From Planctomycetota bacterium (GTDB taxonomy: Bacteria; Planctomycetota; J058), in the NCBI GenBank assembly GCA_020425635.1, contig JAGQRJ010000710.1:1-51663 (forward strand): a DNA stretch of 51,663 bases. The letters run 5' to 3'. The notes beneath the pieces were generated by a model. That model searched no databases. It saw nothing but the letters and a program-made list of their open reading frames with translations, and was not told the DNA's origin. A program made the position numbers and the translations under genes. Below are positions 82 through 12,787 of the stretch, piece after piece. Position 1 is the stretch's first letter. Every line of letters begins with the position of its first letter.

Positions 82-1084
82 CCCGCCGGGTCCCGCCGCG
101 ACCCCGGCGCCCACCGCGGTGCAGTGGCTGCAGCGGGGGCAGGCGAAGCTCGAGGCAGGGCGCTTCGCCGAGGCGCTCCGCGACCTCGACCGCGCGTTGG
201 AGCTCGACCCCGACTGGGCGGCCGCGCTCACCGACCGCGGGGTGTGCAAGATCCAGCTCGGGCGCTTCGAGGACGCGATCGCGGACTTCGACCGCAGCCT
301 GGCCCAGCGCCCCGACCAGGTCGTCGCGCTCTCGAGCCGCGGCTTCACGCACGCCAAGCTCGGGGGCCAGGCCCAGGCGCTGCGAGACTTCGACCGCGCC
401 CTCGAGCTCGACCCCGGCCACCTCCCCGCGCGCTTCAACCGGGGCATGCTCTACGCGAGCCTGGGCGACCACGAGGCCGCGATCGCCGACTTCAGCCGCG
501 TCACCGAGGACAACCCCCAGGACGCGTATGCCTGGGCCTACCTCGGGGAGCTGAAGCTCAAGCTCGGCCAGAACGAGGCCGCGCTCCCCGACCTCGACCG
601 CGCCCTCGCGCTGAACCCCGCCGAGGCGGGCGCCTGGGCCAACCGCGGCTGGGCCAAGGCGCGCCTGGGGCGCTCGGCGGAGGCCCTCGTCGACCTGAAC
701 CGCTCCCTCGAGCTGCTCCCGAACCAGGTCACGGCGTTGACCAACCGGGCGACGGTGTTCGCCCAGCTCGAGCGCAACCTCGACGCCCTCGCCGACTTCG
801 ACCGCGTGCTCGAGCTCGACCCCCAGCGACTCCTGGCCTGGCGGAACCGCGCCGCGCTCAACGTCAAGCTCGAGCGCTACCCCGAGGCGATCGCCGACTA
901 CGACCGCGCGCTCACGCTCGACCCCAAGGACGCGGTGGCCTTGGGAAACCGAGGTTGGCTCTTGTCCCGGCTCGGGCGCCACGACGCCGCGGTCCGCGAC
1001 TTCGACCGCGCGCTGGCGCTCGACCCCCAGGTCCCCGGCGTCGCGGAGTGGCGCGCCGCCGCGCTGCGCGAGCTCGAGAAGTAG
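2..1084 (+). CDS. TPR repeat protein, 5'-truncated by the window edge
   Basis: The frame is open from nt 2, and the tracked GTG at 119 is internal to it. About nine 34-aa units carry a recurring A-x-x-D-F/L-D/N-R-A/S-L-E/A-L-D/N-P signature. Stop TAG at 1082-1084. Confidence 0.85.
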   Translation, partial: VAREPVAREPVAQDPDEDPVEEPVAEPPPGPAATPAPTAVQWLQRGQAKLEAGRFAEALRDLDRALELDPDWAAALTDRGVCKIQLGRFEDAIADFDRSLAQRPDQVVALSSRGFTHAKLGGQAQALRDFDRALELDPGHLPARFNRGMLYASLGDHEAAIADFSRVTEDNPQDAYAWAYLGELKLKLGQNEAALPDLDRALALNPAEAGAWANRGWAKARLGRSAEALVDLNRSLELLPNQVTALTNRATVFAQLERNLDALADFDRVLELDPQRLLAWRNRAALNVKLERYPEAIADYDRALTLDPKDAVALGNRGWLLSRLGRHDAAVRDFDRALALDPQVPGVAEWRAAALRELEK

Positions 1085-1161: not shown

Positions 1162-2634
1162 ATGGACGAGCTGAGCGAAAATGGCAAGCGACGGATCTAC
1201 TCCGTCCTCGTGCGCGTCGCCAACGCCGACGGGCACATTGACGTCACCGAGCGCGCGCTCTTGGAACGCGTCGCCGGAGCCTACGGGATCGCGCCCGACG
1301 AGGCTCAACGGCTCGAGCGCGAGGCACCCACCGCCGAGTGGCGGATCGGCAACGCCGACGTAGAACGGCGCGCCCTGGCCCGCGGTATGGTCCAAGTCGC
1401 TGCCGCCGACGGTGTGCTCGATCCGCGCGAGCTCGAGCTCTTGAAGCGGATCGCCGCCGCTGTGGGACTGCCTGCGGCAGCCCTAGAGCGAGCGATCGCG
1501 ACTGCCTTGGCCCACGCGCAGCCCACGGCTCAGGGGGACCCTCCGAAGTGGGGGCTCGACGTGTGCACCGAGGGGGAGTGGATTCCCTTGATCGATCAAG
1601 GGGAGTTCCTGGAGCGCGCGGTCGCGGTGCTGAGAGAGAAGGACCGCTGGTCGCAGGTGGAGGCCGTCGACCGCCGCCGCGAGGGTCGAATGTCGGTCGC
1701 CTTCGCCTTGCAGGTCATGGCGCACCCGCTGCTTGGCGAACAGCCGGCGCTGGTCGCGCGCTACCGGTCGCCGCACGGCGAGATGATCAGCGAGCGGAGC
1801 GTGGCCTTCCTGGTGCACCCGTTCGAGCTGATCCCTCAACTGGTCGAGGAGTTCGGCAGCGCCGAAATGCGCGGGGCGATCTTGGAGAAGCTCGGGTGGC
1901 TTCCTCTGCCTCGAGTCGAGCCGCACGCGCACGCGCGACTCCAGGCGCAGAGGGTAGCCGCCTGCCGCACTGGCGACCGCGCTGCCCTGGCAGCCACGGC
2001 CAAGGAACTCTATGCCCTGGCCGAGACGACCTGCGGCGCCCAGCTCTTGATCGACGCCAGCGAGCTGCTGCTCTTGGCGGGAGAGGAGCAGGCAGCGTTC
2101 TCGCTGATCTTGGCAGGCGCAGAGTCGTTTCCGGACAAGCCGCTCAGGATCCGCTCGTCGAGCCTCGGCGCGATCGGGCGCCTGGGCCAGGAGTTCGTGC
2201 TGCAGGTGGTCCTCTGGCTGGGGGCCGAGTGTCCAGGGGGCCGGGACCCCGGACGGGTCTACGCGGTGCTCTCCTTCCTCGGAGAGAGCATGAGCTACCC
2301 GCTGGTCCGTGGACCGAGCGACGTCGAACCCCTGGCTGATCCAGACCTGCTGAGCTCCCTCGTAGGGCAGGTTTTCGGCGCGGTCTCCTCGGCGCTCGTG
2401 TGGCAGGCTGCCGTATGGCAGTCGTATCTGGCGGGGCGCACCGTCTCCGCCGAGCGCCTGCAAGACGGACTGGGGCGCGTCCGCCCCTACGCGGAGCTCC
2501 TCCTCGGCTCCGACGACTGCGCGGCTCTAGGGCATGAGTTCGTGCAGCCCGAAGGAGGCAAGCGCCGGTTGACCGAGCTGCTCGACCGGGCGCGCGAAGC
2601 GGTCCAGCACCAGGTCTGGCCGTCCGAAACTTGA
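1162..2634 (+). CDS. TerB-like (tellurite-resistance/DjlA N-terminal type) domain protein with an uncharacterised ~350-aa C-terminal region
   Basis: ATG at 1162 lies inside the long shadow ORF 124..2634. The N-terminus has two helical half-repeats: RRIYSVLVRVANADGHIDVTERALLERVAGAYGI and ALARGMVQVAAADGVLDPRELELLKRIAAAVGL. I do not recognise any family in the C-terminal part. Confidence 0.6.
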   Translation: MDELSENGKRRIYSVLVRVANADGHIDVTERALLERVAGAYGIAPDEAQRLEREAPTAEWRIGNADVERRALARGMVQVAAADGVLDPRELELLKRIAAAVGLPAAALERAIATALAHAQPTAQGDPPKWGLDVCTEGEWIPLIDQGEFLERAVAVLREKDRWSQVEAVDRRREGRMSVAFALQVMAHPLLGEQPALVARYRSPHGEMISERSVAFLVHPFELIPQLVEEFGSAEMRGAILEKLGWLPLPRVEPHAHARLQAQRVAACRTGDRAALAATAKELYALAETTCGAQLLIDASELLLLAGEEQAAFSLILAGAESFPDKPLRIRSSSLGAIGRLGQEFVLQVVLWLGAECPGGRDPGRVYAVLSFLGESMSYPLVRGPSDVEPLADPDLLSSLVGQVFGAVSSALVWQAAVWQSYLAGRTVSAERLQDGLGRVRPYAELLLGSDDCAALGHEFVQPEGGKRRLTELLDRAREAVQHQVWPSET

Positions 2635-2728
2635 GCGCGGCAACTCCGCACCGCGCCCGCTCCCGAGTGGCCCGGCCTCGAGTCGACCGCTCGCGCGCCA
2701 GCGCATAGGATCGCGGCAGGAGGCGGCG

Positions 2729-4489
2729 GTGCCGGCGGAGGACTGGATCGAAGTCGCGCGCAGCGACGACCTCGTCGGCGCGGGGCCGCTGGCGGTGTCG
2801 GCCCGCGGGCTCGACCTGGTGCTCGTGCGGAGCGGCGCCGAGCTGCGCGCCTTCGACGGGGTGTGCCCGCACCAGGGCACGCTCCTGGGCGAGGGCGAGC
2901 TCTGTGACGGTCAGCTCGTGTGCCGCACGCACCGCTGGCGCTTCGACGCGACCCGCGGCCAGCGCGACGGCGGGCCCGAGTGCCTGGCGCGCTATCCGGT
3001 GCGCGCGCGGGACGGGCGGATCTTCGTGGACCTCGGGGCGCGGCGGGTCGCGCCGAGCGCCCAGGGGCGCCGCCGGTGGCACGACCTCCCGGGCCCCCGC
3101 GGCGTGCCCGGGTTCGGCAGCGCGCTCCAGCTCGGCCGCGGCCAGCTCCACGCCCGCATGGAGCAGTGGAGCGAGGCCTACGGTCCCTACTGCGGGTTCA
3201 AGCTGGGGAGCACCCCGGTGTTCTTGATCTCCGACGCCGAGCTCACGAGCCGGGCCCTGCGGGCGCGGCCCCAGGTCTTTCGCCGGCTGAGCAAGATCGA
3301 GGCGGTCTTCCGCGAGCTCGGCGTGGAGAGCGTGTTCACCGCCGAGGGCGACGGGTGGCGTCGACAGCGCCGCCTGACCATGGGCGCGCTCTCGGAGCCC
3401 AACCTGGCGGGCTTCTACCCGGTCTTGCGCAGGGTGCTCGCGCGCCTGCTGCGCCATTGGCAAGCGAAGGCCGCGCGCGGCGAGGCCTTCCTCATTCAAG
3501 AGGACCTGCTGCGCTTCTCGGCCGACGTGATCACGAGCCTCGCCTTCGGGCGCGACGTCAACACGATCGAGGGCGGGAACGACGTGTTCCAGGACAAGAT
3601 CGCCACGATCCTGGTGGCCCTCTCCCGGCGCATGGCGGCGGTGGTCCCCTACTGGCGCTTCGTCTCGCTGCCGCGCGACCGCGCGCTCTACCGCGCGCTC
3701 GGCGAGCTGCGCGAGTGGGCGGCGACGATCGTCGCCGAGACCCGAGCCTCCCTGGCCCAGGACCCCGGGCGGGCGCCCGAGAACTTCCTCGAGGCCATGC
3801 TCACCGCGACCGACGCGGAGGGGCGGCCCTTCGACGAGCCGGTGATCCTCGGCAACGCGCTGACCATGCTCCTGGCGGGAGAAGGGCTCACCGGCAACAG
3901 CCTGGCCTGGTCGGTGCACGAGCTCTGCGACGCGCCGGCGGCGGTGGCGGCGCTGCGCGCGGAGGTCGACGGCGTGCTGGGGGGCGAGGCCTTCCCCGCC
4001 GACTTCGCGGCGACGAAGGCGCTGCGCTACGCCGACGCCGTCACCCGCGAGACCCTGCGCCTGCGCCCGGTCGCGCCCTTCTCGCTCCTGGAGGCCACCC
4101 GCGACACCGCCCTCGGCGACCTCGACGTCCGCGCCGGCGAGGTCTTGATCTGCCTCTACCGCGGCCCCGCGACCCGCGACGAGGTCGGCCCCGACGCCGG
4201 GCGCTTCTCGCCCGAGCGCTGGCTCGACGAGGACCCCGAGGCGCTCGCCAAGCTCAACGCGGTGCACATGCCCTTCGGCTCCGGCCCGCGGATCTGCCCC
4301 GGGCGCTCGCTGGCCCTGCTCGAGCTGCGGGCGGTGCTCTCGCTGCTCTACCGGAACTTCGACGTGGAGCGGGTGGGCGCACCCGAGGAGGTCGGCGAGA
4401 CCTTCCGCTTCGCGGCGGTCGAGCCGGAGGGCTTGCGCGTGCGGCTGCGCGCGCGCGCAGCCGCGCCCGCGGCCCCGCGGCCGGCCTGA
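2729..4489 (+). CDS. Rieske [2Fe-2S] ferredoxin domain fused N-terminally to a cytochrome P450 (586 aa)
   Basis: GTG start is preceded by AGGAGG (2720-2725). Rieske motif: C-P-H-x16-C-x2-H (GVCPHQGTLLGEGELCDGQLVCRTHRW). P450 motifs: ETLRLRP (ExxR), FSPERW, and the heme loop FGSGPRICPGRSLA. Confidence 0.85.
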   Translation: MPAEDWIEVARSDDLVGAGPLAVSARGLDLVLVRSGAELRAFDGVCPHQGTLLGEGELCDGQLVCRTHRWRFDATRGQRDGGPECLARYPVRARDGRIFVDLGARRVAPSAQGRRRWHDLPGPRGVPGFGSALQLGRGQLHARMEQWSEAYGPYCGFKLGSTPVFLISDAELTSRALRARPQVFRRLSKIEAVFRELGVESVFTAEGDGWRRQRRLTMGALSEPNLAGFYPVLRRVLARLLRHWQAKAARGEAFLIQEDLLRFSADVITSLAFGRDVNTIEGGNDVFQDKIATILVALSRRMAAVVPYWRFVSLPRDRALYRALGELREWAATIVAETRASLAQDPGRAPENFLEAMLTATDAEGRPFDEPVILGNALTMLLAGEGLTGNSLAWSVHELCDAPAAVAALRAEVDGVLGGEAFPADFAATKALRYADAVTRETLRLRPVAPFSLLEATRDTALGDLDVRAGEVLICLYRGPATRDEVGPDAGRFSPERWLDEDPEALAKLNAVHMPFGSGPRICPGRSLALLELRAVLSLLYRNFDVERVGAPEEVGETFRFAAVEPEGLRVRLRARAAAPAAPRPA

Positions 4490-4569
4490 CGACCTCAAGT
4501 TCTTGTCGACAACGCGAGAGATCCCTCTAAGATCGATCACGCGACGCGAAGTATCGGCACCACAGGCAG

Positions 4570-7500
4570 TTGAGAGTGCCCGGCAGCAACGACGACGTCC
4601 TGATCCCCTTCTTGAGCTGGGCCGATCGCCACCCAGATCGGCGGCTGTTCTGCTTTCTCGACGCGCAGGGTCGCGAGGTCGAGCAGCACACCTACGGCGA
4701 GTTCGTCGTCCGCACCGGCGCCGTGGCCGAGTTCTTGCAGCGCTCGCTGCCGAAGCTGCGCGCCGGCGATCGGGTGCTCCTGGCCTACCCGCCGGGCCTG
4801 GACATGATCACCGCGTTCTTCGCCTGCGTGCGCCTGGGCTGGATCCCGGTGCCGGTCTACCCGCCCACCAGCCACGGCTACGACGGCGCCCTCGCGAAGA
4901 TGAACTTCATTGCGCAGGACTGCGGCGCGTCGGCGGTGCTCACCACCCGCGCCTTCTACTGGTCCATGCGCGTGAACCGGGTGCGGCACCGGATCCGCAC
5001 CCGCTCCCTGCGGCGCGACCCGGTGAGCGCCCTGCCCTGGGTGCGGACCAGCGACGCCCCGCGCGCCCAGCGCCCCGAGTTCGAGCCGGGCCACAGCGAG
5101 ACCTTGTTCCTGCAGTACACCTCCGGGTCGACCCGCAACCCGCGGGGCGTGATGGTTTCGCACCGCAACCTGCTGAGCAACTGCGAGGCGGTGGTCGACC
5201 ACCTGCCCGTCGGGGTCTCGTGGCTGCCGCAGTACCACGACATGGGGCTGATCGGCTACTACCTGTTCTTTGCCATGAAAGGCGGGACGACCTACGGCTT
5301 CAGCCCCGTGGACTTCATTCAGCGCCCGCTGCTGTGGCTCGAGACGATCACCAAGTACCGCGGCACCGCGGCCTCGGCCCCGGACTTCGCCTTCGCTTAC
5401 TGCCTGCGCGAAGACAAGGTCCCCACCGACGCGCTCGCCCGCCTGGACCTGAGCTCGCTGCGCTTCTTCATGAACGCCGCGGAGCCCGTGCGGGCGGCCA
5501 ACGTGCGGGCCTTCCTCCAGCGCTTCCGCCCCGCCGGGCTGCGCCCCGAGGTCTTCTTCTCCGCCTTCGGGCTGGCGGAGTACACCCTCGCGGCCACCAA
5601 CTACGGGCGCCGGATCCTGACCGTCGACGCCGCGGCCTTCGCCGGCGGGAGCGTGGTCCCCTCGGCGGCGCCCTTGGGGCCGGCCGGGAAGGAGCTCGTG
5701 AGCTGCGGCGCCCCGCTGCCCGGGGTCGAGCTGCGGATCGTCGACCCCGAGACCCGCGCCCCCTTGCCCGCCGAGCAGGTCGGCGAGATCTGGCTCGCGG
5801 GGCCGAGCCGCTGCGCCGGCTACTGGGGTCAGCCCCAGGCCACCCGCGAGGTGTTCGAGGCCCGCCTCGCCGGCGACCCGAGCACCCCCTGGCTGCGCAC
5901 CGGCGACCTGGGCTTCCTCCACGGGGAGGAGCTATTCCACTGCGGCCGGCTCAAGGACCTGGTGATCCTGCGCGGGCAGAACTACTACCCCCAGGACGTG
6001 GAGGCGATCGTCCAGCAAGACCCGCGCGTGCGCGCCGGCTGCACCGCCGCCTTCTCCGTCGTCGCCGACGAGGCCGCCGAGGAGGCGCTGGTGGTCGTGG
6101 CCGAGCTGCGCGACCCCGCCCGGCTGCCCGACGCCGCGGCGCTCAGCCGCCAGGTGCAGGCGGCGCTGGGGATCGCGGTCGACACCCTGGTGTTCATCCG
6201 CGCGCGGACCCTCGCCAAGACCAGCTCCGGCAAGGTCTCGCGGCACCGGGTCAAGCGCGCCTACCTCGAGGGCGAGCTCGAGGCGGTCGCGGTCGTCCGC
6301 CCGGGCCTGGGCGAGGCCAGCGGGTCCGCCGCCGCGGCGACGGACCCCGTGCACGAGGTCTTCGCCCGCTACGGGCTGCGCGGCACCGAGGAGTGGACCC
6401 TCGCGGAGTCGGGGATCGACTCCCTGCGCCTGGTCGAGCTCGCCCAGGACCTCAAGGGCGTGCTCGTCGAGGCCGGCCTCGAGGAGCTCAGCGAGGCGCT
6501 CACCGTCCAGAGCCTGCAGCAGCTCGCGATCGCCGAGCTCGGCGCGCTGCTGACCCAGGTGGCCGAGGGCCCGAGCGTGGCCCGGGTCCGCTTCCGGCGC
6601 GTGCTGACCCGGATCGCCAAGGAGCACCACGCCTTCGAGCAAGAGCTCATGGAGCGGGACGCCCGGCTCAACTTCGACCCGGCGTGCTTGCCCGTGTTCA
6701 GGGGCCTCTCCGAGGCCCCTCGCCCTCGGAGCGAAGCTCCTCGGGCTCAGCCCAAGGGGCCGCAGGCGCCGGGCTCCGAGGCGCCAGCGGCGGGCAGTGT
6801 CTTCCTCACCGGCGGGACCGGCTTCTTCGGGCCCTTCCTCCTGCTCGAGCTGCTGCGGCAGCTCCCCGAGCGCCCGGTGCTCGTGCTCGTGCGCGCCGAG
6901 ACCCCCGAGGCCGGCAAGCAGCGGCTACTCGAGGCCCTGGCCACGGTGCGTCCGCTGGCGGAGCTCCCCCCGGCCTGGCTCGAGCGGATCCAGCCCGTGT
7001 GCGGCGACCTGGCCCGCACCAACCTGGGGCTCACGACCGCCGCCTGGGAGGCCCTCGCCGAGCAGGTGGGCACGATCTACCACAACGGCGCCCTGGTGAA
7101 CTACCTCTACGACTACGCCACCATGCGCGCCACCAACGTGGCCGGCACGAACGAGGTCCTGCGCCTGGCCATGAGCCACCGGCCCAAGCAGCTCAACCAC
7201 GTCTCGAGCACGTTCATCTTCGGCTGGTCGACCAAGGAGGTGCTCTGGGAGACCGACCCCAACGAAGACCGCGAGCTGCTCGACTTCGGCTACAGCCAGT
7301 CGAAGTGGGTCGCCGAGCAGGTCGTGCGCGACGCCATGGCGCAGGGCCTGCAGGCGCGGATCTTCCGCCCCGCGCTGATCACGCCCTCGGTGGCCGGCGG
7401 CGGCGGGTCCTTCGACATCGCCGTGCGCCTGCTGGCCTTCATGGTCAAGCACCAGCTCACCACCACCGCCCAGAACCAGGTCAGCTTCTGCCCCGCCGAC

Positions 7501-7905
7501 CTGGTCGCGCGGAACATCGTCGCGATCGGCGAGCAGCCCGCCAGCGTCGGCCTGACCTTCCACGTGACTCGCGACGACTACGCCAACATGAGCGACGTCA
7601 CCGCGATCCTCGCCCAGCTCGGCGAGCTGAAGTTCACCGCCTACGACCTCGACCGCTTCGTGACCGAGGTCACCGAGCGCTGCGTCCCCGGGGACATTCT
7701 GTTTCCGCTGCTCGACTTCTTCCTGCGCTCCATGGACAACATCGCGGCCATGGAGTTCAAGCGCTACGACAACGCCGCCTACCGGCGCTTCCGCGCCAGC
7801 TCGCCCGAGGGCCTGGCCGACCCCCCGCTCCGCGACGTGGTCGGCGGACTGTGGCGCTTCATGAAGCGCCGCGGGCTGATCGCCGCGCCGGCCGGGGTCG
7901 TCTAA
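4570..7905 (+). CDS. Carboxylic-acid-reductase-like tridomain enzyme: fatty acyl-AMP ligase/adenylation domain, carrier protein and thioester reductase (1111 aa)
   Basis: Adenylation motifs: YTSGSTRNPRGVMVSH, TGDLGF, GRLKDLVILRGQNYYPQDVE, KTSSGKVSR. Carrier-protein Ser lies in LAESGIDSLRLVEL. Reductase domain has the Rossmann motif VFLTGGTGFFG and YSQSKWVAE (YxxxK). Start is TTG 4570, with GTG 4576 as an alternative. Confidence 0.85.
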   Translation: MRVPGSNDDVLIPFLSWADRHPDRRLFCFLDAQGREVEQHTYGEFVVRTGAVAEFLQRSLPKLRAGDRVLLAYPPGLDMITAFFACVRLGWIPVPVYPPTSHGYDGALAKMNFIAQDCGASAVLTTRAFYWSMRVNRVRHRIRTRSLRRDPVSALPWVRTSDAPRAQRPEFEPGHSETLFLQYTSGSTRNPRGVMVSHRNLLSNCEAVVDHLPVGVSWLPQYHDMGLIGYYLFFAMKGGTTYGFSPVDFIQRPLLWLETITKYRGTAASAPDFAFAYCLREDKVPTDALARLDLSSLRFFMNAAEPVRAANVRAFLQRFRPAGLRPEVFFSAFGLAEYTLAATNYGRRILTVDAAAFAGGSVVPSAAPLGPAGKELVSCGAPLPGVELRIVDPETRAPLPAEQVGEIWLAGPSRCAGYWGQPQATREVFEARLAGDPSTPWLRTGDLGFLHGEELFHCGRLKDLVILRGQNYYPQDVEAIVQQDPRVRAGCTAAFSVVADEAAEEALVVVAELRDPARLPDAAALSRQVQAALGIAVDTLVFIRARTLAKTSSGKVSRHRVKRAYLEGELEAVAVVRPGLGEASGSAAAATDPVHEVFARYGLRGTEEWTLAESGIDSLRLVELAQDLKGVLVEAGLEELSEALTVQSLQQLAIAELGALLTQVAEGPSVARVRFRRVLTRIAKEHHAFEQELMERDARLNFDPACLPVFRGLSEAPRPRSEAPRAQPKGPQAPGSEAPAAGSVFLTGGTGFFGPFLLLELLRQLPERPVLVLVRAETPEAGKQRLLEALATVRPLAELPPAWLERIQPVCGDLARTNLGLTTAAWEALAEQVGTIYHNGALVNYLYDYATMRATNVAGTNEVLRLAMSHRPKQLNHVSSTFIFGWSTKEVLWETDPNEDRELLDFGYSQSKWVAEQVVRDAMAQGLQARIFRPALITPSVAGGGGSFDIAVRLLAFMVKHQLTTTAQNQVSFCPADLVARNIVAIGEQPASVGLTFHVTRDDYANMSDVTAILAQLGELKFTAYDLDRFVTEVTERCVPGDILFPLLDFFLRSMDNIAAMEFKRYDNAAYRRFRASSPEGLADPPLRDVVGGLWRFMKRRGLIAAPAGVV

Positions 7906-9260
7906 TGGCGATCTCCAACGTGCCGCACGTGTCGCGGACCACGGCCTTTCTCGACGCCAAGCACATGGTGCAGAACCCGGTCGAGGTGTTCGAGCGCTAC
8001 CGGGCGAGCCTCGGGCCGACCTTCACCTTCCACTTCGGCGGGGCCAAGCGCGCGGTCGTCTCGACCGAGCCCGAGTTCTTGCAGCACGTGCTCAAGACCC
8101 ACCACGGCAACTACGTGAAGTCCCACATTCAGACCAAGCACATGGTCGAGTTCCAGGGGGTGGGCCTGGTCAACAGCCACGGCGAGGAGTGGCTGCGCCG
8201 GCGCAAGCTCGTGGCCCGGGGCTTCACGCCGAGCCGCATGGCGAGCATGCTCCCCCTGCAGATCGAGGTGCTCGACGGGCTCATGGCCCGCTTCGAGGCC
8301 GACGCGGCCGCGGGGCCGGTCGACGTCTACGAGCACATGGTGCGCTTCACCCTGGGCATGGTCGGGCGCTCGATCTTCGGGCGCGCCGCCACCGACGCCG
8401 AGCTGCAGCAGATCGCCGACGCGATCAGCGAGATCCAGGCCTACATCGTCGAAATGATCGTGCAGCCCTACCTGATCCCGTGGTTCCGGATCACGGGCAA
8501 GGCCCGGCGCTACCAACGGATCCGGCGCGAGGCCGACGCGGTGGTGCTGCGGCACATCGAGGCCCGGCGGGCCACGAGCTCGGTGGGCTACGACTTCCTC
8601 AAGCTGCTGCTCGAGGAGCCCTTCCACGACACCCAGAGCCCCATGGAGGAGGGCCAGGCGCTGGTCGAGGCCCTGCAGCTCATGGTCGCGGGCAACGAGA
8701 CCTCGTCGATCGCCGCCACCTGGTTGCTCTACCTGCTGGCGATCCACCCGGAGCACGCCGCGCGGATCCAGGCGGAGGTCGACGCCCACGTCGGCCAGGG
8801 GCCGATCACCGCCGCCTCGCTCAAGGAGCTCGAACACACGGTCCGCTGCCTGCACGAGGCGCTGCGGCTCTACCCGCCGTTTTGGATGATCGACCGGATC
8901 GCGCTCCAGGACGACGAGGCCGCCGGGGTGAAGATCCCCAAGGGCGCCATGGTGATCCCCTACATTTACGGCACGCACCGCAACACCGCGCTCTGGGACG
9001 ACCCCGAGCGCTTCGACCCCGACCGCTTCCTCAAGCCCGCGGTCCAGGCGCGGCACCCCTTCGCGCACGTGCCCTTCGGCGGCGGCCCCCGGCTGTGCGT
9101 GGGCAACAGCATGGCGATCTCCCAGATCACGCTGATCGTGGCCACGCTCTTGCGCCGCTACGACCTGCGCTACGAGCGCGACGAGCCGGTGCGGACCCGG
9201 CCCATGATGCTCCTGCGCCCCGACGGCGACGTGCCCGTGCGCTTCGTCCCGAGGGCGTAA
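7905..9260 (+). CDS. Cytochrome P450 (451 aa)
   Basis: ATG 7905 overlaps the upstream stop (TAATG). Motifs: I-helix MVAGNETSS, EALRLYPP (ExxR), FDPDRF, and the heme loop FGGGPRLCVGNSMA. This is the only real part of shadow ORF 4503..9260. Confidence 0.9.
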   Translation: MAISNVPHVSRTTAFLDAKHMVQNPVEVFERYRASLGPTFTFHFGGAKRAVVSTEPEFLQHVLKTHHGNYVKSHIQTKHMVEFQGVGLVNSHGEEWLRRRKLVARGFTPSRMASMLPLQIEVLDGLMARFEADAAAGPVDVYEHMVRFTLGMVGRSIFGRAATDAELQQIADAISEIQAYIVEMIVQPYLIPWFRITGKARRYQRIRREADAVVLRHIEARRATSSVGYDFLKLLLEEPFHDTQSPMEEGQALVEALQLMVAGNETSSIAATWLLYLLAIHPEHAARIQAEVDAHVGQGPITAASLKELEHTVRCLHEALRLYPPFWMIDRIALQDDEAAGVKIPKGAMVIPYIYGTHRNTALWDDPERFDPDRFLKPAVQARHPFAHVPFGGGPRLCVGNSMAISQITLIVATLLRRYDLRYERDEPVRTRPMMLLRPDGDVPVRFVPRA

Positions 9261-10327
9261 TGTCGCGCTGGGCCTGGCTCCGACTCGCCCGGATCGCGAG
9301 GCGCTGCGGAGGGGTCGACCTGAGCCGGCTCCCCCGCGCCCTGCGCCTGCTGCTGCGCTACGGGCTCCTCGCGCCGCTGCGCTGGGCCCAGCGCCGACGC
9401 CTGGCCCAGCACCCGAGCCCGGCCCTCGGCGAAGACCCGGTGTTCGTGCTCGGGCACTGGCGCTCGGGCACGACCTACCTGCAGCAGCTCTTGGGCGCCG
9501 ACCCGCGGCACACCACCTCGACCCTGTTCACCAGCCTGTTCGCCGACGTGTCGACCTTTCGCTGGCTCGAGGGGGCCATGAACGCGGTGGCCAAGGCCCT
9601 GGGCCTGCGCCACCCGATCCAGCGTCAGGCCTTGCAGCTCGGGCTGCCGGCCGAGGCCGACATTGGCCTCTGCCTGGGCCTCTTGAGCGAGCACGCCTAC
9701 ACCTGGGGGCACGTCTTCCCCCGCGCGTTCCCCGCCTGGCTCGAGACCCACGTGTTCCAGCTCACGCCGGGCGTCGCGGGCCGCTGGCTCGACGACTACG
9801 AGCGGCTCATGCGCCGGGTCTCGGCCCTCGCCGGCGGCAAGCGGGTGGTGGTCAAGAGCCCGGGCGACACGGCGCGGATCCCCTGGCTGCTCGAGCGCTA
9901 CCCCAGCGCGCGCTTCGTCTACCTGCACCGCGACCCGCTCGCCGTGTATCACTCCACCCGCTACCTGTGGAGCGTGATCCGGAGCGAATACGGCCTGCAG
10001 CGGGTCGACGACGCCACGGTCCACCGCTGGATCGTCGACACCTACGCCCGGCTGCTCAGGCGCTACCTGAGGGACCGCGCGCGGGTGCCCGCCGGTCAGC
10101 TGGTGGAGCTGCGCTTCGAGGCCCTGCGCCGCGACGGCCCCGGCGCGCTGGCCGGCGTCTACGACGCGCTGGGCCTGGGGCCCGTGCCCGAGGCCGTGCT
10201 GGCCGAGCTGCGCGCCAGCGCCAGCCACACCCCCACGCGCTACGACACCGCGCCCGCGCTCGAGCACGAGCTGCGCGACGCCTGGGCCTTCGCCTTCGCG
10301 GCCTGGCCCGAGGAGACGGCTGCCTGA
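9260..10327 (+). CDS. PAPS-dependent sulfotransferase family protein (355 aa)
   Basis: ATG 9260 overlaps the upstream stop (TAATG). The 5'-phosphosulfate-binding loop is GHWRSGTTYL. The 3'-phosphate region is VVVKSPGDTARIPWLLERYPSARFVYLHRDPLAVYHS. Confidence 0.8.
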   Translation: MSRWAWLRLARIARRCGGVDLSRLPRALRLLLRYGLLAPLRWAQRRRLAQHPSPALGEDPVFVLGHWRSGTTYLQQLLGADPRHTTSTLFTSLFADVSTFRWLEGAMNAVAKALGLRHPIQRQALQLGLPAEADIGLCLGLLSEHAYTWGHVFPRAFPAWLETHVFQLTPGVAGRWLDDYERLMRRVSALAGGKRVVVKSPGDTARIPWLLERYPSARFVYLHRDPLAVYHSTRYLWSVIRSEYGLQRVDDATVHRWIVDTYARLLRRYLRDRARVPAGQLVELRFEALRRDGPGALAGVYDALGLGPVPEAVLAELRASASHTPTRYDTAPALEHELRDAWAFAFAAWPEETAA

Positions 10328-11211
10328 TGAAGAAGGGCATTCCCAAGCTGGAGGGCACGACCTGGGTGATCACGGGCGCCGCGAGCGGGATCGGGCTCGA
10401 GCTCACGAAGCAGGCCCTGGCCCAGGGCGCCCGGGTGGCGCTGGTCGACGTCGACGCCGAGGGCCTCGAGCGCGCGCTGGCCGCCGGCGGCGCCCCCGAG
10501 CGCTGCTCCACCCACGCGGTGAACGTGGCCGACCGCGGCTCCATGCTCGCGCTCCCCGAGGCGGTGCTCGCCCGGCACCCGGCGGTGCACGTGCTCGTCA
10601 ACAACGCCGGGATCGGCTACGAGGCGGCCTTCCCCCAGACGAGCCTCGAGACCTGGGACCGCGTCATGGGCGTGAACTTCTGGGGCGTGGTCCACGGCCT
10701 GCACGCCTTCCTCCCGCACCTGGCCAAGGCCCCCAAGGCCCACGTCGTGAACCTCTCGAGCCTGTTCGGGATCGTGGGCATGCCCGGGCAGACCGCCTAC
10801 TGCGCGAGCAAGTACGCGGTGCGCGGGCTCAGCGAGTGCCTGTGGGAGGAGCTGCGCACGACCACCGTGGGCCTCACGGTGGTGCACCCCGGCGGCGTGG
10901 CCACGAACATCATGAAGACCTCAGAGGGCGACGACCCCGAGCTCATGGCCAAGCTCGCCGACTGGTACGAGGCCCACGCCATGGCGCCGGCGAAGGCGGC
11001 CAAGAAGATCCTGAAGGCGGTGCGCAAGGGCAAGCCCCGGCTGCGGATCACGCCCGAGGCCTACCTCGCCGACTACGTCAAGCGCCTGCTCCCCGTGAGC
11101 GGCAACCGGCTGATCAGCGCCCTCGTGATCCGGGGGCTGGGGCTCTCCTACATGCGCGAGGTCCGCAGCGAGCAGTGGGAGCGGACCATGGTCCGCGGAG
11201 AGGGGCCGTGA
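10327..11211 (+). CDS. Short-chain dehydrogenase/reductase (SDR, 294 aa)
   Basis: ATG 10327 overlaps the upstream stop (TGATG). Motifs: TGAASGIG cofactor loop, NNAG, and the catalytic S...YCASK (YxxxK). Confidence 0.9.
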   Translation: MKKGIPKLEGTTWVITGAASGIGLELTKQALAQGARVALVDVDAEGLERALAAGGAPERCSTHAVNVADRGSMLALPEAVLARHPAVHVLVNNAGIGYEAAFPQTSLETWDRVMGVNFWGVVHGLHAFLPHLAKAPKAHVVNLSSLFGIVGMPGQTAYCASKYAVRGLSECLWEELRTTTVGLTVVHPGGVATNIMKTSEGDDPELMAKLADWYEAHAMAPAKAAKKILKAVRKGKPRLRITPEAYLADYVKRLLPVSGNRLISALVIRGLGLSYMREVRSEQWERTMVRGEGP

Positions 11212-12683
11212 GCCCGACCTCCGTCGAGGTCTTGATCGTGGGCGCGGGGGTGAGCGGGATCGGCGCGGCGATCGAGCTCCTGCGCCGCGGGCGGCGCGAC
11301 CTCCTCGTGCTCGAGGGCGCCCAGGGGCTGGGCGGGACCTGGCGCGACAACACCTACCCCGGGATCGAGGTGGACATTCCGGTCAGCTCCTACTGTTACC
11401 GCTTCGAAATGGGCTTCCCCTGGTCGCGGCTCTACGCCCCGGGGCACGAGGTGCTCGCCTACCTGCGCCACTGCGCGACGAAGTACGGCGTCGACCCCTA
11501 CGTCCGCTACGGCTGCCGGGTGCGCTCGGCCGCCTTCGACGAGGGGACGAACCGCTGGAGCGTGGAGCTCGCCGACGGGCGCCGCTTCGAGAGCCGCTTC
11601 CTGATCGCGGCCACGGGGCTGTTCTCCACGCCCCGGGTGCCGCCCTTCCCGGGGCTCGAGCGCTTCGAGGGCACGACCCTGCACACCGCGCGCTGGGACC
11701 ACGCGGTGTCGCTCGCGGGCAAGCGGGTGGGCGTGGTCGGCACCGGCGCCTCGGCGGTCCAGGTCGTGCCCCACGTGGCCCGGGAGGCCAGCGCGCTCAC
11801 CGTGTTTCAGCGCACGCCGATCTGGATCTCCCCGCGCTTCAACCCCGCGCTCCGCCGCGCGGCGCCCAGCGCGCGCCCGACCCGCCGGCAGCGGCTGCGG
11901 CGCTGGGTGAGCGAGCTGGCCCTCGAGCTGCTGACCTACGCCGTGGTGCACTACGGCCGCATGCGGCTCTGGCTCGGGGGCTTCCAGCGCGTGGTCCGGG
12001 CCTGGATGCGCCGGCAGGTGCGCGACCCCGCCGTGGCCCGAAAGCTGCTCCCCGACTACGACCTCGGCTGCAAGCGCCCCACCTCCTCCTCCGACTACCT
12101 GGCGACCTTCAACCTCGAGCACGTGACCCTCGAGACCTCGCCGATCCGCGAGCTCGTCCCCGAGGGCGTGGCCGTCGAGGGCGGCGCGGTCCACGCGCTC
12201 GACGTGCTGGTGTTCGCCACCGGCTTCCAAACCACCGAGCAAGGCAACCAGCCCTCGTTCCAGGTGCGGGGCCGCGGCGGCGTCGAGCTGCACGACTTCT
12301 GGGAGCGAAATCGCTTCCAGAGCTACGCCGGGATCGCGGTGCGCGGCTTCCCCAACCTGTTCCTGACGCACGGCCCCTACAGCGGCGGCTTCAACTGGTT
12401 CGCCATGCTCGAGACCCACCTCGGCCAGATCCTGGGCTGCCTCGAGCACGCCTGGGCCACCGACCGGCGCCGGGTCGAGGTCAACGCCGAGGCCTACCGC
12501 CGCTACGTCGCCGCCACCGCGGAGCTGGCCGAGCGCACCGTGTTCAAGGCCGGCCACTGCGCCAGCGCCCGCAGCTACTACGTCGACCGCCACGGCGACG
12601 CCTCGCTCCCCTCCCCGCGCACGCCCTTTCAGCGCGACCGCTGGGCCAAGGCCCGCGGCGTCGCCGACTTCGACTTCGCCTGA
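11208..12683 (+). CDS. Type I Baeyer-Villiger (class B flavoprotein) monooxygenase (491 aa)
   Basis: GTG 11208 overlaps the upstream stop (GTGA). Motifs: FAD loop VGAGVSGIG; BVMO fingerprint FEGTTLHTARWD (FxGxxxHxxxW[P/D]); NADPH loop VGTGASAVQ. Confidence 0.85.
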   Translation: MSPTSVEVLIVGAGVSGIGAAIELLRRGRRDLLVLEGAQGLGGTWRDNTYPGIEVDIPVSSYCYRFEMGFPWSRLYAPGHEVLAYLRHCATKYGVDPYVRYGCRVRSAAFDEGTNRWSVELADGRRFESRFLIAATGLFSTPRVPPFPGLERFEGTTLHTARWDHAVSLAGKRVGVVGTGASAVQVVPHVAREASALTVFQRTPIWISPRFNPALRRAAPSARPTRRQRLRRWVSELALELLTYAVVHYGRMRLWLGGFQRVVRAWMRRQVRDPAVARKLLPDYDLGCKRPTSSSDYLATFNLEHVTLETSPIRELVPEGVAVEGGAVHALDVLVFATGFQTTEQGNQPSFQVRGRGGVELHDFWERNRFQSYAGIAVRGFPNLFLTHGPYSGGFNWFAMLETHLGQILGCLEHAWATDRRRVEVNAEAYRRYVAATAELAERTVFKAGHCASARSYYVDRHGDASLPSPRTPFQRDRWAKARGVADFDFA

Positions 12684-12719: not shown

Positions 12720-12787
12720 TTCGCAGCAGGATCCGGCTGGGGGTGCGCAGAGGGGGCTCGTCCTGCAGTATGGGTAGCGGAGGAAGC

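What the first reader, a model, noticed from the sequence alone, without database searches (positions are those of the whole stretch)
2729..4489. Natural fusion of a Rieske-type [2Fe-2S] domain to the N-terminus of a cytochrome P450
Seen: the first ~105 aa carry a complete Rieske ligand set (CPH-x16-CRTH) and the typical EDWIEV...DDL opening of Rieske ferredoxins. The rest is a complete P450 (ExxR, PERW, FGSGPRICPG).

The known self-sufficient P450 fusions that I can name use FMN/FAD reductase, phthalate-dioxygenase-reductase-like or plant/3Fe-4S-type ferredoxin partners. A high-potential Rieske centre as the built-in partner would be mechanistically odd. It could mean an electron-sink or regulatory role rather than a donor role.

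The I-helix is also atypical: LLAGEGLTGNS instead of the acid-alcohol pair A/GGxD/ETT.
Basis: partly seen in the sequence, partly recalled or inferred. Interest (0 to 1): 0.6.

Follow-up and report, generated by a model that had tools for sequence, protein, structure and literature searches.

The report
Rieske ferredoxin fused to cytochrome P450
One gene really does join a small Rieske iron-sulfur electron-carrier domain to a complete cytochrome P450; this fusion is widespread in uncultured soil and sediment bacteria, I found no study of it, and this copy belongs to a rare branch that lost the usual oxygen-activating residues and always heads a lipid-tailoring operon.

Summary
ORF 2729-4489 (+) encodes 586 aa: a Rieske domain with all four ligands (C46, H48, C65, H68), a roughly 16-residue linker, and a full P450 (ExxR, PERW, FGSGPRICPG).

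The fusion is not an artefact. All 120 best database relatives (48-75% identity) carry both domains, and 80 species-level genomes carry it at full length (Myxococcota, Gemmatimonadota, Acidobacteriota, Beijerinckiaceae).

The reading "high-potential Rieske, electron sink" is not supported. The domain is nearest to low-potential Rieske ferredoxins (T4moC, naphthalene-dioxygenase ferredoxin, BphF) and lacks the disulfide and Ser/Tyr features of high-potential centres. A free-standing Rieske ferredoxin was shown in 2026 to serve the P450 DoxA (PMC12979805). The likeliest role is therefore a built-in one-electron donor fed by an unlinked reductase.

The odd I-helix is real but not a family trait. 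The family consensus is canonical AGEDTT. Only this protein and three relatives (70-75% identity) have AGEGLT, and all four head the same operon: acyl-AMP ligase-ACP-reductase, P450, sulfotransferase, and SDR and BVMO where the contig reaches that far.

I found no paper on the fusion. The scan has seen it before on other DNA. The cluster-to-heme distance could not be measured.

The parts
2718..2723 (+). Shine-Dalgarno-like AGGAGG, 5 nt upstream of the GTG start
   Evidence: Read directly from the sequence
2729..4489 (+). Rieske-P450 fusion gene, 586 aa plus stop
   Evidence: ORF list; Pfam Rieske plus p450; AlphaFold2 mean pLDDT 91.8, pTM 0.91
2729..3034 (+). Rieske-type [2Fe-2S] ferredoxin domain, residues 1-102, pI 5.3
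   Evidence: Pfam residues 6-85; nearest PDB sequences are T4moC, naphthalene-dioxygenase ferredoxin and BphF; beta-strand-rich in the model; pI
2864..2932 (+). Cluster ligand motif C46-P-H48-x16-C65-R-T-H68
   Evidence: Motif position; the motif is kept in 119 of 120 relatives; C46, H48, C65 and H68 are invariant in alignment A1
3035..3082 (+). Inter-domain linker, residues 103-118. It varies in sequence but is constrained in length
   Evidence: pLDDT 66 for residues 101-110; the spacing from the last His ligand to LPGP is 52-54 residues in 90 of 109 relatives
3083..4486 (+). Cytochrome P450 domain, residues 119-586, opening with a eukaryote-like LPGPRGxPxxG hinge
   Evidence: Pfam residues 121-552; PDB sequence hits CYP97A3, CYP102L1, CYP170A1, CYP3A4 and BM3; Foldseek match to the BM3 haem domain, target-normalised TM-score 0.89
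3875..3892 (+). I-helix AGEGLT. The family's Asp386-Thr387 acid-alcohol pair is replaced by Gly-Leu
   Evidence: AGEGLT occurs only in this protein and P0002-P0004, among the 120 relatives and the 150 representatives examined
4049..4060 (+). K-helix ExxR (ETLR, residues 441-444)
   Evidence: E441 and R444 invariant
4211..4222 (+). PERW motif, residues 495-498
   Evidence: P495 and R497 invariant
4274..4303 (+). Haem-binding loop FGSGPRICPG, with Cys523 as the thiolate ligand
   Evidence: present in the relatives; C523 invariant
4506..4533 (+). Promoter-like site (TCGACA-16-TAAGAT) in the 80-nt gap before the next gene. A consensus match only
   Evidence: 1 found, 0.0 expected in shuffles
4570..7905 (+). 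Fatty acyl-AMP ligase - carrier domain - thioester reductase, 1111 aa. It is the conserved downstream neighbour of this branch of the fusion
   Evidence: Pfam AMP-binding, PP-binding (weak) and NAD_binding_4; NCBIfam fatty acyl-AMP ligase and thioester-reductase models; same neighbour in L008-L011 and L179
7905..9260 (+). Second, unfused P450 (451 aa) with a canonical I-helix (AGNETS)
   Evidence: Pfam p450, E 5.6e-85; translation; ATG at 7905
9260..10327 (+). Sulfotransferase (Sulfotransfer_3), 355 aa
   Evidence: At high identity it was found only in the window's own genus among 401 genomes of the phylum
10327..11211 (+). Short-chain dehydrogenase/reductase, 294 aa
11208..12683 (+). Flavin monooxygenase of Baeyer-Villiger/FMO type, 491 aa
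   Evidence: Pfam Pyr_redox_3 and FMO-like; best NCBIfam similarity is PtlE, below its cut-off

Best explanation
The gene encodes a soluble two-domain enzyme. An N-terminal, low-potential Rieske-type [2Fe-2S] ferredoxin domain acts as the built-in, immediate one-electron donor to the haem of a BM3/CYP97-like P450 domain.

The protein is not self-sufficient. It has no flavin or NAD(P)H domain, so the Rieske cluster must be reduced by a separately encoded ferredoxin reductase that is not genetically linked.

The fusion is old and widespread. The window's copy belongs to a rare, derived branch in which the P450 was re-tooled. The I-helix Asp-Thr became Gly-Leu, and about 25 other family-conserved positions changed, many of which appear to lie in substrate-recognition regions (a judgement by position, not by a model). 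This branch was recruited as the lead gene of a lipid-tailoring operon: fatty acyl-AMP ligase-ACP-reductase, a second P450, a sulfotransferase, an SDR and a BVMO. There it most likely oxidises a fatty-acyl-derived intermediate. Proton delivery to bound O2 would be supplied by the substrate, or by the retained Glu385/Thr388, rather than by the classical pair.

Shown here: the architecture, its conservation, the ferredoxin-type affinity of the Rieske domain, the branch-specific I-helix change and the operon linkage.

Inferred: the direction of electron flow, the reductase, the substrate and the chemistry.
For: Architecture and intact cofactor motifs.

Conservation: every one of the 120 best relatives has both domains. 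The four ligands are invariant.

Ferredoxin-type Rieske domain:
- The nearest solved relatives are T4moC (E 1.3e-11), naphthalene-dioxygenase ferredoxin and BphF.
- It has the same CPHQ...C-R-x-H-x-W-x-F pattern as T4moC, with no disulfide cysteines.
- The domain is acidic, pI 5.3.

Fold and constraint:
- AlphaFold2 gives a confident two-domain model: pLDDT 91.8, pTM 0.91, with only the linker lower.
- Linker length is tightly constrained.
- Within the branch the Rieske domain evolves under the same constraint as the P450 domain (dN 0.157 versus 0.152, and 0.209 versus 0.221). It is therefore not decaying.

No flavin or NAD domain is present.

The Rieske module behaves as a detachable accessory:
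- The same P450 family has many unfused members, up to 53% identical.
- Fused and unfused forms are intermixed on the tree, which needs at least 14 changes of state.
- This is what one expects of a redox-partner module rather than a structural part of the catalyst.

Precedents:
- The Rieske-type ferredoxin SpFdx4 with SpFdR3 supports DoxA turnover in vitro and is proposed as its native partner (PMC12979805).
- The ferredoxin-P450 fusion CYP51fx needs an external reductase (PMC7947880).

Branch-specific features:
- AGEGLT occurs only in P0001-P0004.
- Replacements at family-invariant sites are listed.
- The same operon follows the gene in all four lineages.
Against:
- The N-terminus of a P450 lies away from the proximal redox-partner face, and the linker is only about 16 residues. 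Intramolecular docking is therefore not guaranteed.
- No reductase is linked in any of more than 80 loci.
- The window's genome (89% complete) has no BphA4/PdR-type reductase with a Reductase_C domain. Its only FNR-type NAD_binding_1 match sits in a hydrogenase-like cluster.
- By my recollection, Rieske ferredoxins at about -150 to -170 mV are somewhat more positive than classical P450 donors.
- In the two unfused relatives whose contigs I examined there is no separate Rieske gene beside the P450. No fission-type support was found there.
- The lost acid-alcohol pair could mean that this branch no longer activates O2 in the usual way.
Confidence: 0.6

Rival explanations
1. The Rieske domain works in trans. 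Its electrons go to the haem of a second subunit in a homo-oligomer, as in BM3 dimers or the head-to-tail alpha3 Rieske oxygenases. In this operon they might also go to the unfused second P450 (7905-9260). The fusion protein would then double as the operon's ferredoxin.
For: - The linker is short, about 16 residues, and joins the P450 N-terminus, which is distant from the proximal face (P450 topology from established knowledge).
- CYP51fx showed concentration-dependent activity, interpreted as both inter- and intramolecular reduction (PMC7947880).
- The operon has a second P450 and no other ferredoxin.
- The domain order, Rieske at the N-terminus and catalytic domain at the C-terminus, is the same as in Rieske oxygenase alpha subunits, whose Rieske domains also match weakly.
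Against: - pTM 0.91 indicates a defined intramolecular packing of the two domains.
- Most family members are orphan genes with no second P450 nearby. Serving another P450 therefore cannot be the family's general role.
Confidence: 0.2
2. In this branch the P450 no longer acts as a classical O2-activating monooxygenase. Having lost Asp386 and Thr387, it performs atypical chemistry on a lipid intermediate that already carries oxygen or sulfate: rearrangement, elimination, desaturation, reductive or peroxide-type reactions. The Rieske cluster would supply single electrons for that chemistry.
For: - Both residues of the acid-alcohol pair are replaced, and only in this branch, out of about 270 relatives examined.
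- Further invariant positions are replaced as well.
- The gene always sits with a sulfotransferase, which can make a leaving group, and with other oxidoreductases.
- From established knowledge: P450s that do not activate O2 (CYP74, CYP8A, CYP5A, CYP152) typically lack the conserved Thr.
Against: - P450s without the Thr can still be monooxygenases through substrate-assisted proton delivery (EryF and P450cin, from established knowledge).
- Glu385 and Thr388 flanking the change are retained and invariant.
- The Rieske domain is kept under the same constraint as in O2-activating relatives, which fits a continued need for two sequential electrons.
Confidence: 0.12
3. The Rieske centre is a high-potential cluster that serves as an electron sink, redox sensor or regulator of the P450, not as its donor.
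For: - The acid-alcohol pair is absent in this copy.
- No reductase is linked.
- The potential of the centre has not been measured.
Against: - The nearest relatives are low-potential Rieske ferredoxins.
- The cysteines that would form the extra disulfide, and the Ser and Tyr hydrogen-bond donors of bc1/b6f-type proteins, are absent. The positions two and four residues after the last His ligand are Trp70 and Phe72, both invariant.
- The main family has a fully canonical O2-activating I-helix yet keeps the same Rieske domain.
- A Rieske ferredoxin is a proven P450 donor for DoxA.
Confidence: 0.06
4. The single ORF is an assembly or sequencing artefact that wrongly joins two adjacent genes.
For: The genome is a fragmented metagenome-assembled genome (966 contigs), and reads could not be inspected.
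Against: - The same in-frame junction, with conserved linker length, is seen in hundreds of independent assemblies.
- These include isolate genomes of Paraliomyxa miuraensis and Rhodoblastus acidophilus.
Confidence: 0.01

Closest known systems
T4moC, NahAb/naphthalene-dioxygenase ferredoxin and BphF: free-standing low-potential Rieske-type ferredoxins of multicomponent oxygenases (PDB 1SJG/1VM9, 2QPZ, 1FQT)
   Same: They are the best sequence matches of residues 1-102. They share the Cys2His2 ligand spacing and the CPHQ...C-R-x-H-x-W-x-F signature. Like this domain they lack the disulfide, are about 100 aa long and are acidic.
   Different: They are separate proteins that deliver electrons to di-iron or Rieske non-haem-iron oxygenases and are encoded next to their reductases. 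Here the domain is covalently joined to a P450, has no linked reductase, and has no close free-standing relative.
SpFdx4/SpFdR3-DoxA of Streptomyces peucetius (PMC12979805, 2026)
   Same: A Rieske-type Cys2His2 ferredoxin acts as electron donor to a cytochrome P450. The system was reconstituted in vitro with a putidaredoxin-reductase-type or spinach reductase. It is the functional precedent for the proposed mechanism.
   Different: It is a three-component system with a free ferredoxin encoded in the suf cluster. DoxA is an unrelated class I P450. There is no fusion.
CYP51fx of Methylococcus capsulatus (class V ferredoxin-P450 fusion; Jackson et al. 2002; PMC7947880)
   Same: It is a single chain of P450 plus a small iron-sulfur ferredoxin joined by a linker of about 20 residues. 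It has no reductase domain and needs an external ferredoxin reductase.
   Different: The domain order is opposite (P450 at the N-terminus, ferredoxin at the C-terminus). The ferredoxin is an all-Cys 3-Cys cluster type, not Rieske. The P450 family is CYP51. It was reported in more than 50 bacteria, whereas a relative of this fusion was found in 235 species genomes, at least 80 of them full-length fusions.
XplA of Rhodococcus rhodochrous (flavodoxin-P450 fusion), and CYP102A1 (BM3) / CYP116B self-sufficient P450s (from established knowledge)
   Same: XplA also carries its redox partner at the N-terminus and needs a separate reductase. The BM3 haem domain is the best structural match of the P450 domain (target-normalised TM-score 0.89).
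   Different: Their partner domains are flavodoxin/FMN, diflavin reductase, or FMN plus plant-type [2Fe-2S]. None is a Rieske centre. BM3 and CYP116B contain the NAD(P)H-binding reductase, which is missing here.

Membership tests
Rieske [2Fe-2S] domain, low-potential ferredoxin class | Cys-X-His ... Cys-X-X-His ligand set with a spacer of 15-17 residues | tested here: met
   C46-P-H48-x16-C65-R-T-H68. The set is invariant across the family. Pfam PF00355 scores 54 bits against a cut-off of 20.3.
Rieske [2Fe-2S] domain, low-potential ferredoxin class | Absence of the extra disulfide cysteines and of the Ser/Tyr hydrogen-bond donors that raise the potential in bc1/b6f proteins | tested here: met
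   Read from the sequence: CPHQGT rather than CTHLGC, CRTH rather than CPCH, and W70 and F72 two and four residues after the last His. The pattern is the same as in the aligned T4moC. What these residues mean for the potential is established knowledge, not measured here.
Rieske [2Fe-2S] domain, low-potential ferredoxin class | Midpoint potential around -150 mV and a g of about 1.9 in the EPR signal | not testable with these tools
   Needs purified protein.
Rieske [2Fe-2S] domain, low-potential ferredoxin class | Free-standing soluble carrier encoded with a cognate reductase and oxygenase | tested here: not met
   The domain is fused to the P450. No reductase is nearby, and no Reductase_C-type reductase is found in the genome.
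Cytochrome P450 (PF00067) | Cys-ligand loop FxxGxRxCxG, ExxR, PERF/W, and the P450 fold | tested here: met
   FGSGPRICPG at 516-525, ETLR at 441-444, PERW at 495-498. Pfam 236.8 bits. Foldseek target-normalised TM-score 0.89 to the BM3 haem domain.
Cytochrome P450 (PF00067) | I-helix (A/G)Gx(D/E)T(T/S) acid-alcohol pair for O2 activation | tested here: not met
   The window has AGEGLT. The family consensus AGEDTT is present in 116 of 120 relatives, and in most fused and unfused representatives. This feature is typical of P450s rather than obligatory.
Self-sufficient P450s (CYP102, CYP116B classes) | An NAD(P)H-binding flavin reductase domain in the same chain | tested here: not met
   Only the Rieske and p450 domains are detected. 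The chain ends about 10 residues after the P450 fold.
Class V ferredoxin-P450 fusion (CYP51fx) | P450 at the N-terminus, all-Cys ferredoxin at the C-terminus, CYP51 family | tested here: not met
   The order is reversed, the cluster is Cys2His2, and the P450 is nearest to CYP97, CYP102 and CYP170. CYP51fx features are taken from PMC7947880.
Rieske non-haem iron oxygenase alpha subunit | N-terminal Rieske domain plus a C-terminal 2-His-1-carboxylate mononuclear iron domain | tested here: not met
   The C-terminal domain is a P450. Oxygenase Rieske domains match more weakly (E 1e-5 to 1e-3) than the ferredoxins do.

The most novel reading that the evidence does not exclude
The AGEGLT branch is a new kind of P450 catalyst. 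It would use its fused Rieske cluster and a substrate-borne group (sulfate, hydroxyl or an ACP thioester) in place of the Asp-Thr proton relay. It would carry out a non-canonical step in the biosynthesis of an undescribed sulfated, oxygenated long-chain lipid made by the six-gene operon. More broadly, Rieske-to-haem wiring would be a distinct, unrecognised P450 redox class, found in more species genomes here than the >50 bacteria reported for CYP51fx.
Probability: 0.25. Interest if true: 0.7.

Novelty: new variant of a known kind. Interest (0 to 1): 0.5.

Why it matters
P450 redox-partner fusions are prized as models of electron transfer and as biocatalyst scaffolds. The textbook classes contain flavodoxin, diflavin, FMN plus plant-type [2Fe-2S], or all-Cys ferredoxin partners.

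A Rieske-ferredoxin-P450 fusion found in relatives across 235 species genomes, with at least 80 full-length fusions, would add a further class. It would also show that the Rieske-to-P450 route, demonstrated only in 2026 for DoxA, is used widely in nature. Cultured carriers are available for experiments (Paraliomyxa miuraensis SMH-27-4, Rhodoblastus acidophilus MO).

The window's branch offers a natural experiment: the same scaffold with the acid-alcohol pair removed, embedded in a conserved and uncharacterised operon that probably makes a sulfated lipid.

Tried and rejected
1. Cluster-to-haem distance. The AlphaFold2 model was confident, but its coordinates are not exposed to the Python box, so no distance could be measured. 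I did not try direct-coupling analysis. About 250 fused sequences for 586 columns are too few to trust inter-domain couplings.

3. A linked reductase.
   - No conserved neighbour appears in 80 genome loci. After clustering all flanking ORFs, only the gene itself, its antisense shadow ORFs and generic Ser/Thr kinases recur.
   - None appears in three long contigs.
   - In the window's own genome, PF14759 is absent and the single PF00175 match belongs to a hydrogenase-like cluster.

4. Fission evidence. Two unfused relatives with upstream DNA (L156, L159) have no Rieske gene on the contig.

5. Free-standing relatives of the Rieske domain. None scored with the 112-aa query.

6. More members of the AGEGLT branch. 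The metagenome scan returned only the two JGI contigs already known. Within the window's order and phylum, only the window's own genus has the gene or the operon's sulfotransferase.

7. Rooting of the branch with outgroups. The result is unreliable because of a long-branch warning. I rely instead on the representative tree, where the unfused P0122 is sister to the branch with 100% SH-aLRT support.

8. Literature. Seven searches for Rieske/P450 fusion terms found no paper on this architecture. One search for the operon's gene combination found nothing. NCBIfam has no model for the family above its cut-off.

9. dN/dS. The absolute values (0.3-0.5) are inflated by the extreme GC3 bias. I use only the comparison between domains.
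Full report
**1. Observation**

The window has about 72% G+C. A single ORF runs from GTG 2729 to the stop ending at 4489 on the + strand and encodes 586 aa. AGGAGG lies 5 nt upstream of the start.

Pfam finds a Rieske domain (residues 6-85, E 1.4e-14, 54 bits against a cut-off of 20.3) and a P450 domain (residues 121-552, E 5.9e-70).

- CPH-x16-CRTH, residues 46-68
- ETLR, residues 441-444
- PERW, residues 495-498
- FGSGPRICPG, residues 516-525
- the I-helix reads AGEGLT, residues 383-388

**2. The fusion is not an artefact and not rare**

Relatives:
- A word-indexed search of 5.8 billion proteins returned 120 listed relatives at 48-75% identity. Every one carries both PF00355 and PF00067.
- 119 of the 120 keep the ligand motif, in a strikingly conserved form: CPHQGALLGEGE...LVCRNH.
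- In a 101-sequence alignment C46, H48, C65, H68 and C523 are invariant.

Spread:
- A scan of one genome per GTDB species found 235 relatives.
- The best 80 all match from the Rieske domain through the P450 domain.
- They come from Myxococcota (Nannocystaceae, Kofleriaceae, Polyangiaceae, Haliangium, Labilithrix), Gemmatimonadota, Acidobacteriota (Vicinamibacteria, Thermoanaerobaculia) and Beijerinckiaceae (Methylocella, Methylocystis, Roseiarcus).
- They include the isolates Paraliomyxa miuraensis SMH-27-4 and Rhodoblastus acidophilus MO.

Depth of the family:
- An exhaustive HMMER search of 1.84 billion representatives clustered at 50% identity gave 599 hits at E <= 1e-30.
- About 35 of the best 150 are fused, some only 31-32% identical to the query.
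- JGI's automatic product name ([quoted passage not shown]) shows that pipelines see both halves.
- NCBIfam has no model for the family.

The scan has met the same fusion on other DNA (e1-3826651, e1-2980566).

**3. What kind of Rieske centre**

- Residues 1-115 match free-standing Rieske ferredoxins best: T4moC (E 1.3e-11), naphthalene-dioxygenase ferredoxin (6e-10) and BphF. Rieske domains of oxygenase alpha subunits and the b6f protein match much more weakly.
- The aligned T4moC shares the pattern CPHQ...C-R-x-H-x-W-x-F.
- The two extra cysteines that form the disulfide of bc1/b6f-type proteins are absent. The positions that carry the Ser and Tyr hydrogen-bond donors in those proteins are Trp70 and Phe72, both invariant.
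- The extra Cys59 is unique to this protein.
- By established knowledge these features go with potentials around -150 to -170 mV. [quoted passage not shown]
- The domain is acidic, pI 5.3.

**4. What kind of P450**

- By sequence the nearest solved P450s are CYP97A3, CYP102L1, CYP170A1, CYP3A4 and BM3.
- The AlphaFold2 model (pLDDT 91.8, pTM 0.91) superposes on the BM3 haem domain with a target-normalised TM-score of 0.89. No PDB entry covers both domains; the best query-normalised TM-score is 0.70.
- The P450 part opens with a eukaryote-like hinge, DLPGPRGxPxxG, whose L120, P123, P127 and G130 are invariant.
- There is no flavin or NAD(P)H domain. The protein is not self-sufficient.

**5. Geometry**

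- Only residues 101-110 drop in confidence (pLDDT 66), and pTM 0.91 implies a defined mutual orientation of the two domains.
- The spacing from the last His ligand to LPGP is 52-54 residues in 90 of 109 relatives, although the linker sequence varies.
The cluster-to-haem distance, which is the key number, is unmeasured.

**6. The Rieske module is an accessory**

- Many close relatives of the P450 domain are unfused: 460-495 aa, up to 53% identity, starting a few residues before LPGP.
- Two such loci have no Rieske coding sequence upstream or elsewhere on the contig.
- On a tree of the P450 domain alone, fused and unfused forms are intermixed. Well-supported branches force at least 14 changes of state.
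- No close free-standing relative of the Rieske domain was found.
- This behaviour fits a detachable redox-partner module.

**7. Genomic context of the main family**

- In three long contigs the neighbours are unrelated.
- Clustering all ORFs in the flanks (up to 8 kb each side) of 80 loci found no recurrent neighbour other than generic Ser/Thr kinases.
- No reductase is linked.
- The window's genome (89% complete) lacks a Reductase_C-type ferredoxin reductase. Its one FNR-type match lies in a hydrogenase-like cluster.
- The reductase is therefore unknown and presumably a general cellular one.

**8. What is special about this copy**

I-helix:
- The family I-helix is canonical, AGEDTT: 116 of 120 relatives, and most fused and unfused representatives.
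- Only this protein and P0002, P0003 and P0004 (70-75% identity) read AGEGLT.

Other changes:
- The four form a 100%-supported clade on a long stem.
- They differ from the rest at about 27 positions that are at least 85% conserved elsewhere. These include G201S, T268I, L291I, P296V/Q, D386G, T387L and A389G.
- Their sister, P0122, is unfused and keeps AGEDTT. The I-helix change therefore arose on the stem of this branch.

Constraint:
- Within the branch the Rieske domain is as constrained as the P450 domain: dN 0.157 versus 0.152, and 0.209 versus 0.221.

Operon:
- All four lineages sit directly upstream of the same genes: acyl-AMP ligase-carrier-thioester reductase, a second P450, a sulfotransferase, and an SDR and a BVMO-type flavoprotein where the contig reaches that far. 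The flanks outside this block differ between lineages.
- In one lineage a DUF6036 gene is inserted after the fusion gene.
- In the window an 80-nt gap with a promoter-like match separates the fusion gene from the rest of the operon.

Distribution:
- Inside the window's order (15 genomes), and in a 401-genome sample of its phylum, only the window's own genus has the fusion or the operon's sulfotransferase at high identity.
- The congeneric MAG is labelled "Planctomycetota bacterium" by NCBI.
- This distribution suggests that the block moves horizontally.

**9. Literature**

- Seven full-text searches found no paper describing a Rieske-P450 fusion.
- A 2025 review of Rieske oxygenases discusses natural self-sufficient P450s without mentioning it.
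- One relevant precedent did turn up. In Streptomyces peucetius the Rieske-type ferredoxin SpFdx4, with SpFdR3 (or with spinach reductase), supports DoxA turnover and is proposed as its natural partner (PMC12979805). This corrects the earlier scan note that no Rieske ferredoxin had been shown to serve a P450.
- CYP51fx is the closest described architecture. It is a P450 with a C-terminal all-Cys ferredoxin, a linker of 20-30 residues and a need for an external reductase. It was reported in more than 50 bacteria, which its authors called unprecedented (PMC7947880).

**10. Verdict**

- The mechanistic reading is corrected from "high-potential sink" to "low-potential built-in donor".
- The fusion is a widespread variant of ferredoxin-P450 fusions on which I found no published work.
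- The window's copy is a rare, re-tooled member tied to an uncharacterised lipid operon.
- Electron flow, reductase, substrate and chemistry remain inferred.

Noticed in passing
window 4570-12683 (+): A five-gene block follows the fusion gene in all four known lineages, though it is complete only where the contig reaches that far: acyl-AMP ligase-ACP-thioester reductase, P450, sulfotransferase, SDR and BVMO-type flavoprotein. The genes are joined by 1- or 4-nt overlaps. The flanks outside the block differ between lineages. It has no KS, AT, C or TE domains and matches no pathway in the literature searched. A sulfated, oxygenated fatty alcohol or ester is my guess.
   Followed up: partly
window 4506-4533 (+): A sigma-70-like promoter match (TCGACA-16-TAAGAT) lies in the AT-richer 80-nt gap between the fusion gene and the acyl-AMP ligase gene. 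The fusion gene may be transcribed separately from the other five.
   Followed up: no
L011 11307-11834: In the congeneric MAG (GCA_041402045.1) a DUF6036 gene and about 800 nt of spacer are inserted between the Rieske-P450 gene and the rest of the operon. The link between the fusion gene and the block is therefore looser than the links within the block.
   Followed up: no
P0122 (representative protein, 477 aa; no locus): The nearest relative of the AGEGLT branch is an unfused P450, 53% identical over the P450 domain. It keeps AGEDTT and starts just before the RRW-x-DLPGP linker end. Across the family, fused and unfused forms are intermixed on the tree, with at least 14 changes of state.
   Followed up: partly
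P0148 and P0129 (representative proteins): P0148 has a Rieske-like N-terminus in which the third ligand Cys is replaced by Gly (…ILTGRAH), a possibly degenerate cluster site. P0129 has an insertion of about 10 residues between the two ligand pairs.
   Followed up: no
window 12743-15727 (+): A 994-aa protein joins a Ser/Thr protein kinase domain to a C-terminal FGE-sulfatase (formylglycine-generating-enzyme-like) domain. It lies immediately downstream of the sulfotransferase operon.
   Followed up: no
window 1222-2634 (+) and 119-1084 (+): Upstream neighbours: a roughly 470-aa protein with an N-terminal TerB-like domain, and a 321-aa protein made of TPR repeats. Neither is conserved next to the fusion gene in relatives.
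   Followed up: no
L096 (G000:C828:1-3065): The genome's only FNR-type NAD_binding_1 protein sits between a cyclic-nucleotide-binding-like ORF and NiFe-hydrogenase-like small and large subunit genes. This looks like a sulfhydrogenase-type cluster, not a P450 reductase.
   Followed up: partly
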